Positions 29,690-37,700 of a stretch of 64,000 nucleotides of DNA are shown here, piece by piece; position 1 is the stretch's first letter; the number at the start of each line of letters is the position of its first letter. Source of the stretch: the human T2T-CHM13v2.0 reference genome, Homo sapiens; NCBI RefSeq assembly GCF_009914755.1, contig NC_060927.1; one strand, 5' to 3'. The notes beneath the pieces were generated by a model. That model was given only the letters and a program-made list of their open reading frames with translations, searched no databases and was not told where the DNA came from. The position numbers and the translations under genes were made by a program.

Positions 29690-31210
29690 ATATAACACAA
29701 TGTATTCATCCATTCCCTTCATGAAGGACATTAGGATTGTTATCTATGTTGTCACCATTACAAATAATGAATACTTTTATACATATCTTCTGGAGCATGT
29801 GTGAGAGTTTCTTATGATATATATAATAAATTCTTGTTATTTGCAGTAGTTATGTTGTATAAGGTCACTTTGAACACTGAATAAGCTAATATTGAACCAT
29901 TATTGTTGGGGGGAAATAAAGGGTTAGGCCCCTAAAAACTTCTGGTCACAATATTTTTGTCAATCAATCAATAAAAACCTTGTTTTATGTGTGCTTCTTT
30001 TAAAAGTCAACTAATTTCATATATATTGTTGATGCATTAACAGTGAACTCACAGCCACTTAACTGTAACTCATGCTTGCATGAAGCTTAGCTGGCACATC
30101 TATTTTCTCAGTAACCCACATCACAGCCTTCTTGCATTTCAGATCACTGGATAACACTTCAGCACTACTCTTAGGGGCCACTTTTAATAGTAAAACCACC
30201 AAATAAAAGCACAGACCTTTGAAAATTATGGCACTAAGTCAAACACAGATAGGAAGCTTGTTTAAAGTATGAAAAATGGGAGAAGAAGGCAGAGTTTTGC
30301 CTTGTTCAACCTCAGCTGGGAACATGCATGTCAAGTTACTCAAATTTTTCACAGCTCTGCGTATGTCTACAGGTGGCTGCAAAAGCACCATGAATATTAA
30401 TTTGAGGGTTACAGATAAGTTTTCGAAAGCAGGCAAATTCACAAATACAGAATCTGTGAATAACGAGGACCGACTATACTTACAAGTAGTATTCCTGGAT
30501 ATTAAAATATAGCCATCATCAATTTTGCTAGATGTTAGCAAATTGTTATTCAAAACGTGTGTACCTATTTCACTTCTACCCTAAGTTTCACTAGATCCAA
30601 GAGTCCCCACATTCATTCCAACTTTTGGTATTACTATTTTTAACATCCATGAATCCGAGGCACATAAAATGTCAACTTGTGGTTATTTGTTTACATTTGG
30701 ATTTATTAGATTACTAAAGAGACTGAGCATCTCATAGAGGTTTTTCTTCCTTTGTTCCTGTTGATGCTTTTTGTTCATTTCCTGTTGTTTGTTGACTGGT
30801 TTGTCTTGGCTATCCTTGGTCAACTACTTCTACATATAAATTTAGGAGTAAGTTTCCTCAGTTTTATGAAAAATTCTATTAGATAATTTATTGGAATTAT
30901 ACCAATATTACAGGATAATTTGTGAAGAATTAACATCATTAAAAGAATTACTATCTTCTATGTGTTTAAGAGATGTTTTGTGATTTTCTTTGCAAGAATA
31001 TTGTACATTTGGAAGTTAAATTTATTTCTAGTTATTATAAAGATTGTGTTATTATAATTTATGTGCTTATCCATTTCATTTTCTAATTGATTACTGTTGA
31101 CATAGGGTTCACTATTGATTTTTTATGTCAATGTTTTATCTTGAAATCCTCTGAACTCCTTTGTTATTTTTAATAATGTTTGTGGGTTCTGTTGGGGTTT
31201 TTTCTCATAT
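29690..31210 (-). mobile_element. Ancient L1ME (antisense); resumes after ~34920
   Basis: Degraded antisense L1 ORF2/3'UTR motifs on both sides of the Tigger element and of the SVA insertion. Confidence 0.55.
29824..30476. mobile_element. MER82-like TcMar-Tigger element inserted in an L1ME
   Basis: Termini ttcttgttatttgcagtagttatg / gtgaataacgaggaccgact, ~650 bp, TA flanks. Confidence 0.7.
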
Positions 31211-31213
31211 AGA

Positions 31214-31307
31214 TGTGGCAGAAACTACTATTTACAGTCCAGAGCCTAATTGCCACATTTTTCTTTTGCCTAGAGATACTCCCCCTCCCCTTAGAATTCC
31301 TTCTTCA
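31214..31307 (+). mobile_element. MLT1-type LTR fragment, left part (continues at 34779-34883)
   Basis: tgtggcagaaactact start; continues after the SVA insertion as tttcagctgagcacat...catatggttaagttctg. Confidence 0.5.
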
Positions 31308-33030
31308 GCCCTCTCCCTCTCCTTCACCCTCTCCCCACAGTCTCCCTCTCCCTCTCTTTCCACGGTCTCCCTCTCCCTCTCTTTCCATGGTCTCCCTCTG
31401 ATGCCGAGCAGAAGCTGGACTGTACTGCTGCCATCTCGGCTCACTGCAACCTCCCTGCCTGATTCTCCTGCCTCAGCCTGCCGAGTGCCTGCGACTGCAA
31501 GCGCGTGCCGCCACGCCTGACTGGTTTTCGTATTTTTTTGGTGGAGATGGGGTTTCGCTGTGTTGGCCGGGCTGGTCTCCAGCTCCTAACCGCGAGTGAT
31601 CCGCCAGCCTCGGCCTCCCGAGGTGCCGGGATTGCAGACGGAGTCTCGTTCACTCAGTGGTCAATGGTGCCCAGGCTGGAGTGCAGTGGTGTGATCTCGG
31701 CTCGCTACAACCTCCACCTCCCAGCCACCTGCCTTGGCCTCCCAAAGTGCCAAGATTGCAGCCTCTGCCCAGCCGCCACCCCGTCTGGGAAGTGAGGAGC
31801 GTCTCTGCCTGGCCGCCCATCGTCTGGGATGTGAGGAGCCCCTCTGCCTGGCTGCCCAGTCTGGAAAGTGAGGAGCGTCTCTGCCCGGCCGCCATCCCAT
31901 CTAGGAAGTGAGGAGTGCCTCTTCCCGGCCGCCATCACATCTAGGAAGTGAGGAGCATCTCTGCCCGGCCGCCCATCGTCTGAGATGTGGGGAGCGCCTC
32001 TGCCCCGCCGCCCCGTCTGGGATGTGAGGAGCGCCTCTGCCCGGCCGCGAACCCGTATGGGAGGTGAAGAGCGTCTCTGCCCGGCTGCCCCATCTGAGAA
32101 GTGAGGAGACCCTCTGCCTGGCAACCACCCCGTCTGAGAAGTGAGGAGCCCCTCCGCCCGGCAGCCGCCCCGTCTGAGAAGTGAGGAGCCTCTCCGCCCG
32201 GCAGCCACCCCATCTGGGAAGTGAGGAGCGTCTCCGCCCAGCAGCCACCCCGTCCGGGAGGGAGGTGGGGGGGTCAGCGCCCCGCCAGGCCAGCCGCCCC
32301 ATCCGGGAGGGAGGTGGGGGCGTCAGCCTCCCGCCCGGCCAGCCACCCCATCCGGGAGGGAGGTGGGGGGGTCAGCACCCCGCCCGGCCAGCCGCCCCGT
32401 CCGGAGGGAGGTGGGGGGGTCAGCCCCCCTCCCGGCCAGCCGCCCCGTCTGGGAGGTGAGGGGCGCCTCTGCCCGGCCGCCCCTACTGGGAAGTGAGGAG
32501 CCCCTCTGCCCGGCCACCACCCCGTCTGGGAGGTGTACCCAACAGCTCATTGAGAACGGGCCAGGATGACCATGGCGGTTTTGTGGAATAGAAAGGGGGG
32601 AAAGGTGGGGAAAAGATTGAGAAATCGGATGGTTGCCCTGTCTGTGTAGAAAGAATTAGACATGGGAGACTTTTCATTTTGTTCTGTACTAAGAAAAATT
32701 ATTCTGCCTTGGGATCCTGTTGATCTGTGACCTTACCCCCAACCCTGTGCTCTCTGAAACATGTGCTGTGTCCACTCAGGGTTAAATGGATTAAGGGCGG
32801 TGCAAGATGTGCTTTGTTAAACAGATGCTTGAAGGCAGCATGCTCGTTAAGAGTCATCACCACTCCCTGATCTCAAGTACCCAGGGACACAAACACTGCA
32901 GAGGGCCGCAGGGTCCTCTGCCTAGGAAAACCAGAGACCTTTGCTCACTTGTTAATCTGCTGACCTTCCCTCCACTATTGTCATATGACCCTGCCAAATC
33001 CCCCTCTGTGAGAAACACCCAAGAATGATC

Positions 33031-33062
<32 letters not shown>
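31308..33062 (+). mobile_element. Full-length SVA retrotransposon (SVA_C/D-like)
   Basis: CCCTCT hexamer head, antisense Alu-like domain, GC-rich VNTR (~31760-32530), SINE-R, 28-nt poly(A) at 33035-33062. Confidence 0.98.
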
Positions 33063-33063
<1 letters not shown>

Positions 33064-33835
33064 AATGGTGAAAGTAGGCATCCTTGTCTTTTTCCAGTTC
33101 TTATAGGAAAGGCTTTCAGTTTTTCCCCATTTAATATTTTAGCTGCGGATTTGTCATATATGATCTTGATTATGCGGAAGTATATTTCTTCTATGCCTAA
33201 TTTTTTCAGAGTTTTTATCATAAAAGGATATTGAATTATGTCAAATGCTTTTCTGGATATGTTAAAATGATTATATGGTTTTTGTCCTTCATTATGTTGA
33301 TAGGATATATCATATATATTAACTTGCATATGTTAAACCATCCTTGCATCCCTGGGGTAAATTTCACTTGATTATGGTGGCGTATTATCTTTTGCAGAAA
33401 CATGGATAGAAGTGAAGTTCATTATGTTAAGTGAAATAAGCCAAGCACAGAATGACAAATATCACATGTTCTCATTCATACGTGGGGACTGAAAAGTTTA
33501 CCACATGGAGTTAGAGAGTAGAATGATGCTTATCAAAAGGTGGGAAGGATGAATGGGGGTGAAGAGAGGTTGGTTAATGAGTACAAACATACAGTTAGAA
33601 GTAATAAGTTCTTACGTTTGATAGAAAAGTAGAATGACTATAATTAACAATCATTTCTCATATATTTCAAAATATCTAAAAGATTTGAAATATGTTTCCT
33701 AACACAAAGAAAGGAAAACATTTTTGAGGTGATTGATATCCTAAACATCCTGATTCAATCATTATACATTGTACATATGTATCAAAATATCACATACACC
33801 CCATAAATATGTACAATTATTATGTATAAATAAGA
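33063..33835. mobile_element. L1MA-type element with an inversion: antisense ORF2 (33063-~33390) joined to the sense 3' end (~33391-33835)
   Basis: ORF 33033-33329 (-) is RT-region-like ([15 protein letters not shown]...[15 protein letters not shown]), followed by sense attatgttaagtgaaataagcc and the 3'UTR. Confidence 0.85.
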
Positions 33836-34291
33836 AAGACAGCAGCTAACAAAAAACTAGAAATGTAAAAGAGATAATAAGTAGCAGAGGATTTGTAGAA
33901 AAGGAGAGACACAGCACACAGGAAAATATAGCTAAAAAATTACCCAATATACAGGTAAAAATATTTTCTAAAATATGTTAGAAAAATAAAGATACATAGA
34001 GAATGGAAGGAAAAATATGACATTGTATACTTTGAGTTCTAGAAAAAAAGAGAAGGAATAATACATGAAATCTTTTTATAAATTACAGAACATATGAATG
34101 CTCAAGTTGAGAGAGATCACCGGATTCCATTTAGAATTAAACCACATACACACATAAATACACATATGCACACAAACACCCAAAGTAAGGGTATTGCAAA
34201 AACTAATAAATATAAATTTATCTTAAATTCAGCCAGAGAGGAAAAAACAGATTCCCTATAATAAAACAATAATTTTACTGGTAGAAGAACT

Positions 34292-34764
34292 CTTTTTTTA
34301 TTATTATTATACTTTAAGTTCTAGGGTACATGTGCACAACGTGCAGGTATATTACATATGTATAGATGTGCCATGTTGGTGTGGTGCACCCATTAACTTG
34401 TCATTTACATTGGGTATATCTCCTAATGCTATCCCTCCCACCTTCCCCCATCCCATGACAGGCCCAGTGTGTGATGTTCCCCATCCTGTGTCCAAATGTT
34501 CTCATTGTTTAATTCCCACCTATGGGTGAGAACATGCGGTGTTTGGTTTTCTGTCCTTGTGATAGTTTGCTCAGAATGACGGTTTCCAGCTTCGTCCATG
34601 TCCCTACAGAGGACATGAACTCATCATTTTTTATGGCTGCATAGTGTTCCATGGTGTATATATGCCACATTTTCTTAATCCAGTCTATCATTGATGGACA
34701 TTTGGGTTGGTTCCAAGTCTTTGCTATTGTGAACAGTGCCGCAATAAACATACGTATGCATGTG
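34292..34764 (-). mobile_element. L1PA (PA4-6 like) 3' end, cut off by the transduction poly(A)
   Basis: ORF 34509-34751 (-) MFIAALFTIAKTWNQPKCPS is the ORF2p C-terminus. Confidence 0.93.
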
Positions 34765-37700
34765 AAAAAAAAAAAAAAAGAATTCCTTCTTCACAGATAC
34801 GCACACCAATTTCAGCTGAGCACATAACCACCAGCTAGAAATCGCATGTTCCATCTTCCCTGTAACCATATGGTTAAGTTCTGTGTTTTTTTTTTCTTTT
34901 TCTTCTGTTGTTTTGTTTTACTTTTAGTGGGAAGGGCTAGGATTTTCAGTACAAGGTAGATTAGTAGCAGTGGAGATGTGCATCCTTGTCTCATACCCAA
35001 ATTAACAGTACCATTTCTAAATGCTTACTAATATAAAATTTGTCATAGCTTTTGGATTCCCTCCTTCACTGCTATGTATTTCATCATATTATGTAATTTC
35101 CCTTTCTTTCTTAGTTGGTTAAGAGGTTTTCTTTTTATTTATTTTTTCTCACAAAAAAGTGTTAAGTTGCACGCAATGCTTTTTCTGTGTGGTATTGTAT
35201 GTAAGGTTTTTTTTTTTTTTTTTTTTTTTTGTATGCTTTCTACATTCCCTCAGCTGCCTCCTTCTCTCTTGGTTGGTAGTCTGACCTGCTGAATCTCCCC
35301 TCCACTTCTGGTCTTAGATGAAATGCCACAAAACAGGGCTTGGGAAATGGCTTCTTGAGTAGCTACCAAGTTGCCAAATGTATAGAAGCATTAGATCTCT
35401 GTGGAATAAAATTTGACCAATGGGAAGCAAGAGTCAGGAGGGAACCAGACAGATACATTTCCACTCCTGTCCCTCCGCAGTGCCGTTTCCTCTTACAAAC
35501 CTTTTAGAAAAGTTCCCATAAGCAGAGGGAATATGCTTAAATGTCTTTGCAACTGAATGTCTCTGAACTTGTACGGAAGTGGTGGCCAGCACAGCAACAC
35601 AATCGCTGTACATCTTTTCTTGCCTCACATCACCTATTTTCCTCAATCACTGCTTGGATTTATACCCCTCGAAGTGTCAACATTATAATCTGTGCATCAG
35701 GCTCTGCTTTCCAGCAGATGCAGCCTAGGATACTCAGGCTAAAATCCATTATACCTAGTAGGACAATGTTAATGTTTGCTCCTTTAATCTCTTAGATATT
35801 AATATGGTGACAGATAGATAGATAGATATTGATACACAAATCCATCTTTCACTTCTTCATTCCTGAAATAAATTCTTCTCGTATTTTTTAAAACACTAGA
35901 TTTTTTATATGTTAGCATTTTATTTAGGAATTATTCATTTATGGTCTTAAATAAGATCAGTCATTAGAATTATTTTACTGTCAGTATCCGGTTTCAGTGT
36001 CAAAGTAATACTTATCTATAAATTAGAGTTGATGCCTTTTTTTTCTTTTTGTGTTCTCTGAAATACATATAATTACCAGTTCATTGAGGCTTGATGAAAC
36101 TTGCATTCAAATTTTATTGGCTTGATGTATTTCTTATATTTGAGATATGTGGGATTCATAAGGGCATATTTGTGACTACCAAGTCAATTTCTTTAAAGGA
36201 TGTTGGTTTACTGAGGTTTTCTATAACTCCATCGTCAATAAAATCTTAAGTATTAGAATAATTTACATTAAAAATGTAGCTTGAAATTTATGAAACAGAA
36301 GAGCATACTCATTACTTGTAATCCAGTAAAATTCTACTTTTGTGTAGTTTTTAAGCTGAAATTATCATAAATGTATAGAAAAATGTATATGTATGAATTA
36401 AAGTTCAATACAGCATTTATTATAATGCAAATAATTTGAAAAACTATATAAATATCCAAAAATAATTGAGATTGATATATAAAGTGTGTCCTATCCATCC
36501 CATTGGTTTCCTCATAGCCAATGAAAGTTGTAGCCTTGAATCTTGGAGAACATATAAAGATTATGAGAAAATACTTTGTGTTGGCAAGTGAGACATAGCA
36601 GTATATTCTATTACTTAATTTTGTTTTAGAATGGAGAGAGAAAGAGAATTAAAGACTTGTAGAATTTATCCCCAAGTTTTAGCCTTGTTATATTCTTCAT
36701 TAAATTTGTATACATTTTATCATAACTTGCTGACATTTTTGTCATCAGGAACAAAACATGTTATAAAATATCTTTTTAAATTGCCATTGTTTTCTACATG
36801 TGTTATAGCCACACTAATTCAGGATGAGGTGTTAGATCATCTTGCATGTGAGGCAACCTCTCCCAATTCAATGCCGTGTCCTACTTAGGATGAATTGGGA
36901 TGCAAAATAACCCCACACTGGGACTCAGTGAGAAACTGCTGACGTCTATTCTGTTATCATAGCACATCCCACTGGAGACCCACTCTTGTCAGAATACATC
37001 TAGGGCATCCTCCAAACTGCAAAAATAACAGTCCTTACCAAAGGATAATAATGTCTCCATGCCCATCAGCCTGATCCTGGAACAAAAATAATAGCTTCTT
37101 GAATTGAGCCAAGGGGATTTTGAAAAAGAAAATTTCCAGAGTGTACACTAGCATGGTTTGTGTTCCATTCAGCACCAGGTACCCAGTAAGGAGATGCTTG
37201 TTATAAAGAGAGCTAAAGAGGAACATGCACAGAGCCTTTTGCTATCAGCATTGTTATCAAACTGTTGGATAAGAAACCATTTGACCAGGGGAGTGTACAG
37301 AGGGTAACTGAAAAGATATAGAATTAAAATTTCTGAATTCTAATGCGAGCCTTTCACTGAGGAAAACAAATTCCACAATGGCAAAACAATCCACACTGGG
37401 TGGCAAAGCTCTTCTGACCTCATGCCTTCCAGTTCCCTCACTTAGCCATTCACTCACCAAGTATTCGTTCAGATCCTGCTAACTGTGGGAGGCATTTTTG
37501 CTCCAAAGAAGGGCAAAGATTTGTTGCACACAGCCTCTGTATTCAAGGAGCTTATTCTCAAAGAGAATTTCTCAAGTCAAACAATTCTACTGCATTTTCT
37601 GTGCCAGAAAGTGAACGAGACGCAGAATAGCTGGAGATAATTAAAGTTGAGGCAAAACCGCAAAGCCAGAGGTTTGGAAGTTTTATTCTTTTCAAGCAGA

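What the first reader, a model, noticed from the sequence alone, without database searches (positions are those of the whole stretch)
31293..34793. SVA carrying a 1.7-kb 3' transduction: a 3.5-kb composite insertion
Seen in the sequence: the 15-mer agaattccttcttca just before the SVA head (31293-31307) does not follow the SVA poly(A). It recurs at 34779-34793, after a second poly(A) (34765-34779) that has AATAAA 16 nt upstream. The target reads TT/AGAA, an L1-endonuclease-type site. Joining the two flanks restores a continuous MLT1-like LTR fragment, with the same L1ME on either side. Established knowledge: SVAs mobilise downstream DNA by reading through their poly(A) signal. Inference: 33063-34764 (1702 bp) is foreign DNA copied from the source SVA locus. 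A repeat annotation would show it only as unrelated old L1 pieces, so it is easy to miss. It serves as a barcode for the source element and any sibling copies.
Basis: partly seen in the sequence, partly recalled or inferred. Interest (0 to 1): 0.85.

Follow-up and report, generated by a model that had tools for sequence, protein, structure and literature searches.

The report
SVA with 1.7-kb 3' transduction
A full-length SVA retrotransposon in a CPNE4 intron carried 1.7 kb of DNA copied from chromosome 2 when it inserted, which is a genuine but ordinary example of a well-known process.

Summary
The 15-mer AGAATTCCTTCTTCA occurs only at 31293-31307 and 34779-34793. It brackets three things: a full-length SVA (31308-33062), 1,702 bases of non-SVA DNA (33063-34764), and a second A-run (34765-34779) that lies 16 nt after an AATAAA.

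The 1,702 bases have exactly one other full-length copy in this assembly, at C2:77172747-77174446 on the minus strand, 97% identical. At that locus an old L1 runs unbroken across the 5' junction. The L1PA continues past the 3' end, with no A-run there. No SVA lies within C2:77166000-77183999, so the chromosome 2 site is an empty source site. No sibling copies exist. The two copies differ by about 2.5%, and both carry derived changes, so the event is old.

Best reading: a classical SVA 3' transduction from a source SVA that is not in this assembly (0.85). Rivals are a template-switch chimera and a separate retrocopy that landed in the SVA tail. Outgroup genomes could not be searched. The kind of event is textbook and has been catalogued genome-wide in this assembly, so interest is low.

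The parts
31293..31307 (+). Left copy of the 15-bp target-site duplication, AGAATTCCTTCTTCA. The target reads TT/AGAA.
31308..31399 (+). SVA 5' end: one G (possibly an untemplated, cap-derived G), then a CCCTCT-type hexamer region.
   Evidence: Tandem Repeats Finder rows 31309-31399. 0 of 29 related SVAs align upstream of 31308. Untemplated G at SVA 5' ends is described in PMC4859970 (passages).
31400..31760 (+). SVA Alu-like domain.
   Evidence: 91-96% identical to other SVAs. 72-88% identical to ordinary Alu copies on C2. Boundaries are taken from the neighbouring tandem-repeat rows.
31761..32515 (+). SVA VNTR, with units of about 37-49 bp.
   Evidence: Tandem repeat rows; repeat families D1-D4; GC 65-80%
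32516..33034 (+). SVA SINE-R domain, ending in the element's own hexamer, which reads ATTAAA (33032-33037).
   Evidence: 32530-33036 is 97-98% identical over its full length to 39 other loci. Among 29 relatives the hexamer is AATAAA in 14, ATTAAA in 13 and other in 2.
33035..33062 (+). Inner A-run (28 A): the source SVA's tail, copied as part of the read-through transcript.
33063..34764 (+). Transduced DNA, 1,702 bp, copied from C2:77172747-77174446 (minus strand).
   Evidence: 97% identity over query 1-1702. 43 mismatches and 5 gap events in 1,696 aligned columns. Only two copies in the assembly.
33063..33332 (-). Within the transduced DNA: old L1 reverse-transcriptase fragment, antisense to the SVA (ORF2p residues 584-669).
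   Evidence: Solved-structure sequence search, E 8.6e-24. RVT_1 E 3.9e-6 at 27.2 bits, below the 29.6 cut-off.
33382..33839 (+). Within the transduced DNA: old L1 ORF2 C-terminus and 3' end, in sense. Together with the previous part it looks like one 5'-inverted L1.
   Evidence: 33361-33489(+) matches ORF2p 1240-1274, E 0.003. Many loci match at 75-79%. The right-hand boundary is inferred from where those matches end.
33840..34290 (.). Within the transduced DNA: unclassified sequence, unique in the genome apart from the parent locus.
   Evidence: 2 candidates genome-wide, both scored: the window itself and C2 at 99%. No family match.
34291..34764 (-). Within the transduced DNA: L1PA 3' UTR and the end of ORF2, antisense to the SVA. 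It is cut off at 34764 in the window but continues at the parent locus.
   Evidence: 34512-34790(-) matches ORF2p 1189-1275, E 2.5e-47. 38 loci match at 92-93%. The continuation is read at C2.
34743..34748 (+). The AATAAA that was used. Cleavage falls 16 nt downstream, after 34764.
   Evidence: At C2 the same hexamer is followed by L1 sequence, not by A's.
34765..34779 (+). Outer A-run (15 A), not templated at the parent locus.
34779..34793 (+). Right copy of the 15-bp target-site duplication.

Best explanation
This is one L1-mediated retrotransposition event that inserted a 3,471-base RNA copy (31308-34778).

Proposed steps:
1. A source SVA once sat on chromosome 2, in the orientation of that chromosome's minus strand. 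It lay directly upstream of what is now C2:77174446, at a TT/AAAT site inside an old L1.
2. Its transcript ran through the SVA's own weak signal (ATTAAA in this copy). It also passed four further hexamers.
3. It was cleaved and polyadenylated 16 nt after an AATAAA on the antisense strand of a neighbouring L1PA.
4. L1 proteins nicked the CPNE4 intron at TT/AGAA and reverse-transcribed the whole RNA, giving SVA, its old tail, 1,702 bases of chromosome 2 and a new tail. The insertion has a 15-bp target-site duplication and lies antisense to CPNE4.

Shown here: the bracket structure, the parent locus, the non-templated outer tail, the intact empty parent site, and the absence of siblings.

Inferred: the former presence of an SVA at the chromosome 2 site, which is absent from this assembly and was presumably never fixed. 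The age is also inferred. About 2.5% divergence between copy and parent lies between my recalled human-gorilla and human-orangutan divergences. That suggests an insertion in the African great ape ancestor.
For: - The perfect 15-bp duplication encloses SVA plus extra DNA, not the SVA alone. 0 of 100 shuffles reach two matches.
- The SVA is full length, starting at 31308, and has all domains.
- The extra 1,702 bases match one other locus over their whole length, C2 at 97%. The 451-base unique part has only 2 candidates genome-wide.
- At C2 the old L1 crosses the 5' junction in a single alignment on 2 of 2 reference copies. The L1PA continues past the 3' end. C2 is therefore the parent and the window holds the copy.
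- The window's outer A-run is absent at C2 and follows AATAAA by 16 nt.
- The C2 junction lies at TT/AAAT. Only 5% of 7-position windows in the local 10 kb hold a site this close to TT/AAAA.
- Derived changes lie on both copies: 6 in the window and 10 in C2, out of 16 polarised in the L1PA part.
- In PMC12593883 (passages), 3' transductions of polymorphic SVAs range from 9 bp to 4 kb. For 16% of transduction-carrying SVAs no source SVA is found. The authors explain this by loss or low frequency of the source.
Against: - No SVA lies at or near the parent locus. C2:77166000-77183999 shows no VNTR or SINE-R match, only 9 Alu-type alignments at 72-88%. The source element is therefore inferred, not seen.
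- If the source's target duplication began at AAATAA, the window should read AAATAAGAATGG after the inner tail. It reads AAAAAAGAATGG. That needs either one substitution or a nick a few bases further on.
- Divergence is uneven along the segment, from 0.9% to 4.4% per block. Part of this comes from a 6-column cluster at 33206-33211 that looks like two offset 1-bp indels.
- No outgroup genome could be examined. Presence or absence of the whole unit in other primates is untested.
Confidence: 0.85

Rival explanations
1. Template-switch chimera. L1 reverse transcriptase began on a polyadenylated chromosome 2 transcript unrelated to any SVA and copied 1.7 kb. At an A-rich stretch (AAATAA) it jumped to the poly(A) tail of a separate SVA RNA and copied that to its cap. 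This is still one insertion with one target duplication, but no SVA ever sat on chromosome 2.
For: - No SVA at the parent locus.
- The junction on C2 is A-rich. That would give a T-rich cDNA end able to pair with a poly(A) tail.
- PMC4859970 (passages) notes that U6/L1 chimera junctions are typically T-rich.
Against: - Rare compared with read-through. Among 217 transduction-carrying SVAs in PMC12593883, template switching is described as an additional mechanism, illustrated by a single processed-pseudogene case.
- It needs an abundant germ-line transcript from a region made only of L1 debris.
- The junction coincides with an L1-endonuclease-type site, which read-through from an inserted SVA predicts directly.
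Confidence: 0.07
2. Two events. A plain SVA inserted first, with the 15-bp duplication. Later a separate retrocopy of the chromosome 2 transcript landed inside the SVA's poly(A) tail in the same orientation. This could be an orphan transduction from some element upstream on chromosome 2. Its own duplication would consist only of A's.
For: - The extra segment is bounded by A-runs on both sides (28 A and 15 A).
- An all-A duplication could not be told apart from tail sequence.
- Poly(A) tails offer L1-endonuclease sites. This point rests on established knowledge, not on a call.
Against: - It needs a rare class of insert to hit a target of about 30 bp, in the same orientation as the SVA. This is my inference from target size, not a computed number.
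- The outer A-run would have to hold the new tail, the A duplication and the rest of the old tail, yet it is only 15 A long.
Confidence: 0.03
3. DNA-level duplication or chance. Either a segmental duplication or gene conversion placed chromosome 2 DNA next to an SVA, or the 15-mer pair is coincidental.
For: None specific.
Against: - The copy ends exactly at a poly(A) site and carries a non-templated A-run.
- It starts exactly at the SVA tail.
- A 15-mer pair is not expected by chance (0 of 100 shuffles).
- The flanks are otherwise unique in the genome.
Confidence: 0.01

Closest known systems
SVA 3' transduction: read-through of the SVA poly(A) signal. The works of Ostertag 2003 and Xing 2006 were seen only as citations in reference lists. 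Recent surveys: PMC12593883 and bioRxiv 10.1101/2021.07.12.451456.
   Same: A full-length SVA, its tail, unique DNA from another chromosome, a second tail after a downstream AATAAA, and one target duplication around the whole unit.
   Different: At 1,702 bp it is long. PMC12593883 gives a mean of 347 bp, a median of 258 bp and a maximum of about 4 kb for polymorphic SVAs. The source SVA is absent from this assembly, and the event is old (about 2.5% divergence) rather than polymorphic.
CASP8-intron SVA_E source element and its chromosome 19 offspring with a 288-bp 3' transduction (PMC4859970, passages).
   Same: Inter-chromosomal SVA offspring that carries flanking intronic DNA from the source locus.
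   Different: In that case the source SVA is still present in the reference. Here only the empty parent site is seen.
L1 3' transduction (Moran 1999, seen as a citation).
   Same: The same mechanism: a weak element signal, use of a downstream signal, and L1-mediated insertion.
   Different: The carrier here is a non-autonomous SVA mobilised in trans.
Template-switch chimeric retrocopies (U6/L1 type; PMC4859970).
   Same: Two unrelated RNAs joined inside one target duplication, with a T/A-rich junction.
   Different: In those chimeras the 5' partner is usually a small RNA. Here the 5' partner is a complete polyadenylated SVA, which read-through explains more simply.

Membership tests
L1-mediated (target-primed) retrotransposition insertion | Target-site duplication of about 4-20 bp flanking the insert | tested here: met
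   Perfect 15-bp duplication at 31293-31307 and 34779-34793. The 4-20 bp range is given in PMC3287187.
L1-mediated (target-primed) retrotransposition insertion | Poly(A) tail at the 3' end, not templated at the source | tested here: met
   15 A at 34765-34779. The parent locus reads on into L1 sequence instead.
L1-mediated (target-primed) retrotransposition insertion | Insertion at an L1-endonuclease-type site (TT/AAAA on the strand of the insert) | tested here: met
   TT/AGAA, one mismatch. 1.4% of nearby positions are that close.
SVA element, full length | Hexamer region, Alu-like domain, VNTR, SINE-R and poly(A), in that order | tested here: met
   Tandem repeat rows. SINE-R 97-98% identical to 39 loci. 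5' part 91-96% identical to related SVAs, starting at 31308. The subfamily (A to F) was not determined, because no consensus library is held.
SVA 3' transduction | Non-SVA DNA between the SVA tail and a second tail, all inside one target duplication | tested here: met
   33063-34764 lies between A-runs 33035-33062 and 34765-34779, inside the 15-mer pair.
SVA 3' transduction | The extra DNA maps to a single parent locus that continues beyond both ends | tested here: met
   C2:77172747-77174446, 97% over 1-1702. The old L1 is continuous across the 5' end in 2 of 2 references. The L1PA is continuous past the 3' end.
SVA 3' transduction | A poly(A) signal at the end of the extra DNA | tested here: met
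   AATAAA at 34743-34748, 16 nt before the tail, and also present at C2.
SVA 3' transduction | Source SVA directly upstream of the parent sequence. This is corroborating rather than defining: PMC12593883 accepts origins without an SVA for 16% of cases. | tested here: not met
   No VNTR or SINE-R match in C2:77166000-77183999. Other human or ape assemblies could not be searched.
SVA 3' transduction | Empty target site, with a single copy of the 15-mer, in outgroup species | not testable with these tools
   No primate genomes are held. The flanks have no paralogous empty site in this assembly.

The most novel reading that the evidence does not exclude
The composite is not a read-through product but a chimeric retrocopy. 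L1 reverse transcriptase, while copying an unrelated chromosome 2 transcript, jumped at an A-rich stretch onto the poly(A) tail of an SVA RNA. This would be an old, fixed example of SVA-led template switching, a route so far documented for SVA by very few cases.
Probability: 0.07. Interest if true: 0.25.

Novelty: already known. Interest (0 to 1): 0.1.

Why it matters
The finding has little significance beyond correct annotation.

- It shows that 1.7 kb which a repeat table would list as stray L1 pieces is really part of one SVA insertion.
- It records a chromosome 2 source site whose SVA is no longer present in this assembly.
- The kind of event is textbook. It was screened genome-wide in this very assembly, with 55 highest-confidence SVA 3' transductions and lower-confidence bins in a supplementary table (bioRxiv 10.1101/2021.07.12.451456, passages).
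- The transduced DNA carries no exon or recognisable gene. It holds only L1 debris and 451 unclassified bases.

Tried and rejected
- Repeat family of the flanks. Genome searches with the left flank (6 candidates, the 5 non-self ones at 70-76%, none reaching beyond 31211) and the right flank (2 candidates) gave nothing across the insertion point. 'MLT1-like' stays untested.
- Naming the flanks through protein similarity. Open stretches 34815-35024(-) and 31126-31224(-) gave no L1 match. Colinearity was shown at the DNA level instead, on 3 of 8 references. The C2 L1 gave no alignment to either flank.
- My first reading of all L1 pieces as sense-oriented was wrong. The ORF list and the solved-structure searches show an antisense RT piece, a sense C-terminal piece and an antisense L1PA.
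- My guess that 33840-34290 is an L1 ORF1 remnant was not supported.
- My recollection that a canonical SVA end differs from this copy's was dropped. 13 of 29 relatives share its ATTAAA, so the weak signal is not special to this copy.
- Sibling search. Three sub-queries found only the parent. In some searches only 40 of 15,041 and 40 of 7,618 first-look candidates were scored. Very short or diverged siblings could therefore be missed there. One search scored all of its 2 candidates.
- Literature for this locus. A full-text search for CPNE4 + SVA + transduction gave 1 paper, which is irrelevant. Xing 2006, Damert 2009 and the journal version of the T2T repeat paper are not held. I therefore cannot say whether this locus is already listed.
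- SVA subfamily was not assigned, because no consensus library is held.
Full report
**What is in the sequence**

The 15-mer AGAATTCCTTCTTCA occurs at 31293-31307 and 34779-34793 and nowhere else in the window, even allowing one mismatch. The chance expectation is 0.06, and 0 of 100 shuffles gave two matches.

Directly after the first copy an SVA begins. Of 29 related SVA loci fetched from the same assembly, none aligns upstream of 31308 and 11 start at 31308-31318. Some of the other loci were cut by the locus ends or matched only at the Alu level.

The element has the full SVA order:
- a hexamer region at 31309-31399;
- an Alu-like domain to about 31760;
- a VNTR at 31761-32515;
- a SINE-R, of which 32530-33036 is 97-98% identical to 39 other loci;
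- a 28-A tail at 33035-33062.

The single G at 31308 may be an untemplated, cap-derived G of the kind described for full-length SVAs (PMC4859970, passages). GC content falls from 50-80% in the SVA to 26-42% after the tail.

After the SVA tail the sequence is not the 15-mer. It is 1,702 bases of other DNA (33063-34764). That DNA ends 16 nt after an AATAAA (34743-34748) in a 15-A run that merges into the second 15-mer. The target reads TT/AGAA, one mismatch from TT/AAAA. Only 1.4% of nearby positions are that close.

**Where the extra DNA comes from**

A search of the window's own assembly with 33063-34764 gave one other full-length match, C2:77172747-77174446 on the minus strand, 97% identical over bases 1-1702. 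The remaining large matches cover only the last ~470 bases at 92-93%, which are ordinary L1PA copies (40 of 21,516 first-look candidates were scored).

Sub-queries agree:
- 33063-34290 finds only itself and C2 at full length.
- 33063-33390 finds itself, C2 at 96% and old L1 copies at 78-81%.
- 33840-34290 has just 2 candidates in the genome, itself and C2 at 99%.

There are thus exactly two copies and no siblings.

Reading the C2 locus in the orientation of the window shows two things. The old L1 that opens the segment continues upstream without a break. The L1PA that closes it continues downstream exactly where the window has its A-run.

Two independent old-L1 copies align across the C2 5' junction in one piece (2 of 2). 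C2 is therefore the undisturbed parent, and the window holds a poly(A)-terminated copy.

**No source SVA in this assembly**

Neither a megablast of window 30300-35800 nor a more sensitive blastn of the SVA alone finds VNTR or SINE-R sequence in C2:77166000-77183999. Only 9 alignments appear, at 72-88%, between the Alu-like domain and ordinary Alu elements.

The parent site is therefore an empty site. The junction there reads TATATT/AAATAA|GAATGG. TT/AAAT is an endonuclease-type site, and only 5% of 7-position windows in the local 10 kb contain one that good. The site suits an SVA once inserted there in the right orientation.

It would suit a template jump at an A-rich stretch as well, so it does not separate these two readings cleanly. 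The window shows AAAAAA where the parent has AAATAA, so the exact junction cannot be fixed to the base.

**Composition of the transduced DNA**

Solved-structure sequence searches with open stretches give the following:
- 33036-33332 (minus strand) matches L1 ORF2p residues 584-669 (E 8.6e-24). RVT_1 also hits, at 27.2 bits, below its 29.6 cut-off.
- 33361-33489 (plus strand) matches ORF2p 1240-1274 (E 0.003).
- 34512-34790 (minus strand) matches ORF2p 1189-1275 (E 2.5e-47).

The segment is therefore, in order:
1. an old L1 with an inverted 5' part;
2. 451 unclassified bases, with no family match;
3. the 3' end of an L1PA lying antisense to the SVA.

The poly(A) signal that was used sits on the antisense strand of that L1PA. 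Before reaching it the transcript passed the SVA's own ATTAAA (33032) and four more hexamers, at 33985, 34136, 34205 and 34260. The ATTAAA form is not peculiar to this copy. Among 29 relatives, 13 have it, 14 have AATAAA and 2 have something else.

**Age**

Copy and parent differ at 43 of 1,696 aligned columns (2.5%, K2P 0.026), plus 5 gap events. Eleven of the mismatches are in CpG context. About five of the mismatches sit in a 6-column cluster at 33206-33211 that looks like two offset single-base indels, so 2.2-2.5% is a fair range.

Using other L1PA copies as an outgroup, 6 changes are derived in the window and 10 in C2, out of 16. This is as expected if both copies have aged since one copying event.

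From recalled genome-wide divergences (human-chimpanzee about 1.2%, human-gorilla about 1.6%, human-orangutan above 3%; no call), the event would predate the human-chimpanzee split and postdate the orangutan split. At that age a source SVA that never reached fixation is unsurprising. Divergence is uneven along the segment (0.9-4.4% per block), and I leave that unexplained beyond the indel cluster.

**Flanks**

The left flank (30953-31214) and the right flank (34936-34991) map to one strand, in order, on 3 of 8 old-L1 references. They are 82-109 reference bases apart, so one old L1 does lie on both sides.

About 236 bases around the insertion point (31215-31307 and 34794-34936) exceed that gap. 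Whether they are an MLT1 fragment could not be tested. The flanks have no paralogue in the assembly, so no empty chromosome 3 site can be seen here.

**Mechanism and rivals**

The simplest account is a classical SVA 3' transduction from a chromosome 2 source SVA that is absent from this assembly (0.85).

Surveys of polymorphic SVAs report the following (PMC12593883, passages):
- 3' transductions range from 9 bp to 4 kb (mean 347 bp);
- tails are shorter on elements that carry a 3' transduction;
- for 16% of transduction-carrying elements there is an inferable origin without an SVA, ascribed to loss or low frequency of the source.

A template-switch chimera (0.07) fits the missing source and the A-rich junction. 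It is rare, however, and needs an abundant transcript from L1 debris.

A second, independent retrocopy landing in the SVA tail (0.03) cannot be excluded from one genome. It requires a rare insert to hit a target of about 30 bp in the same orientation.

DNA-level duplication or chance (0.01) is contradicted by the non-templated tail and by the 15-mer statistics.

**Comparison with what is known, and verdict**

SVA 3' transduction is listed among the hallmarks of SVA (PMC3287187; PMC4859970). It was screened across this very assembly, giving 55 highest-confidence SVA 3' events and lower-confidence bins in a table I could not open (bioRxiv 10.1101/2021.07.12.451456; supplements closed). It is also used routinely to trace source elements (PMC10681720).

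A full-text search for this locus by gene name found nothing relevant. The tables where it would be listed were not visible to me.

The event is an ordinary, rather long, old member of a well-known kind.

Noticed in passing
L036 (G000:C13:31215999-31219505), L039 (C6:100315214-100318720), L054 (C2:26834810-26838316), just after the SINE-R end: Several related SVAs show a short non-A stretch between two A-runs right after their tail. L036 has about 16 bases and L039 about 11. In L054 the stretch looks like an Alu 3' end. These may be very short 3' transductions or tail interruptions.
   Followed up: no
window 33063-34764 versus L011 (C2): Divergence between copy and parent is uneven: 4.4%, 2.0%, 0.9% and 3.1% in four consecutive blocks. 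Part of it comes from a 6-column cluster at 33206-33211 that looks like two offset 1-bp indels in T-runs. The rest is unexplained. Gene conversion by other L1 copies is one possibility.
   Followed up: partly
window 33063-33840: The old L1 inside the transduced DNA has an antisense reverse-transcriptase piece directly followed by a sense ORF2 C-terminus and 3' end. This is the pattern expected of a 5'-inverted (twin-primed) L1 insertion that was already present at the chromosome 2 locus.
   Followed up: partly
window 34885-34920 and 35206-35239: Two T-rich runs lie in the right flank (family D6). The first sits at the edge of the unclassified ~236 bases around the insertion point. It may be the tail of a minus-strand element.
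   Followed up: no
L034 (G000:C1:27128083-27131589): This is the closest SVA relative found: 9 mismatches in 507 bases of SINE-R and 96.4% identity in the 5' part. It carries AATAAA rather than ATTAAA, and it has no chromosome 2 segment.
   Followed up: no
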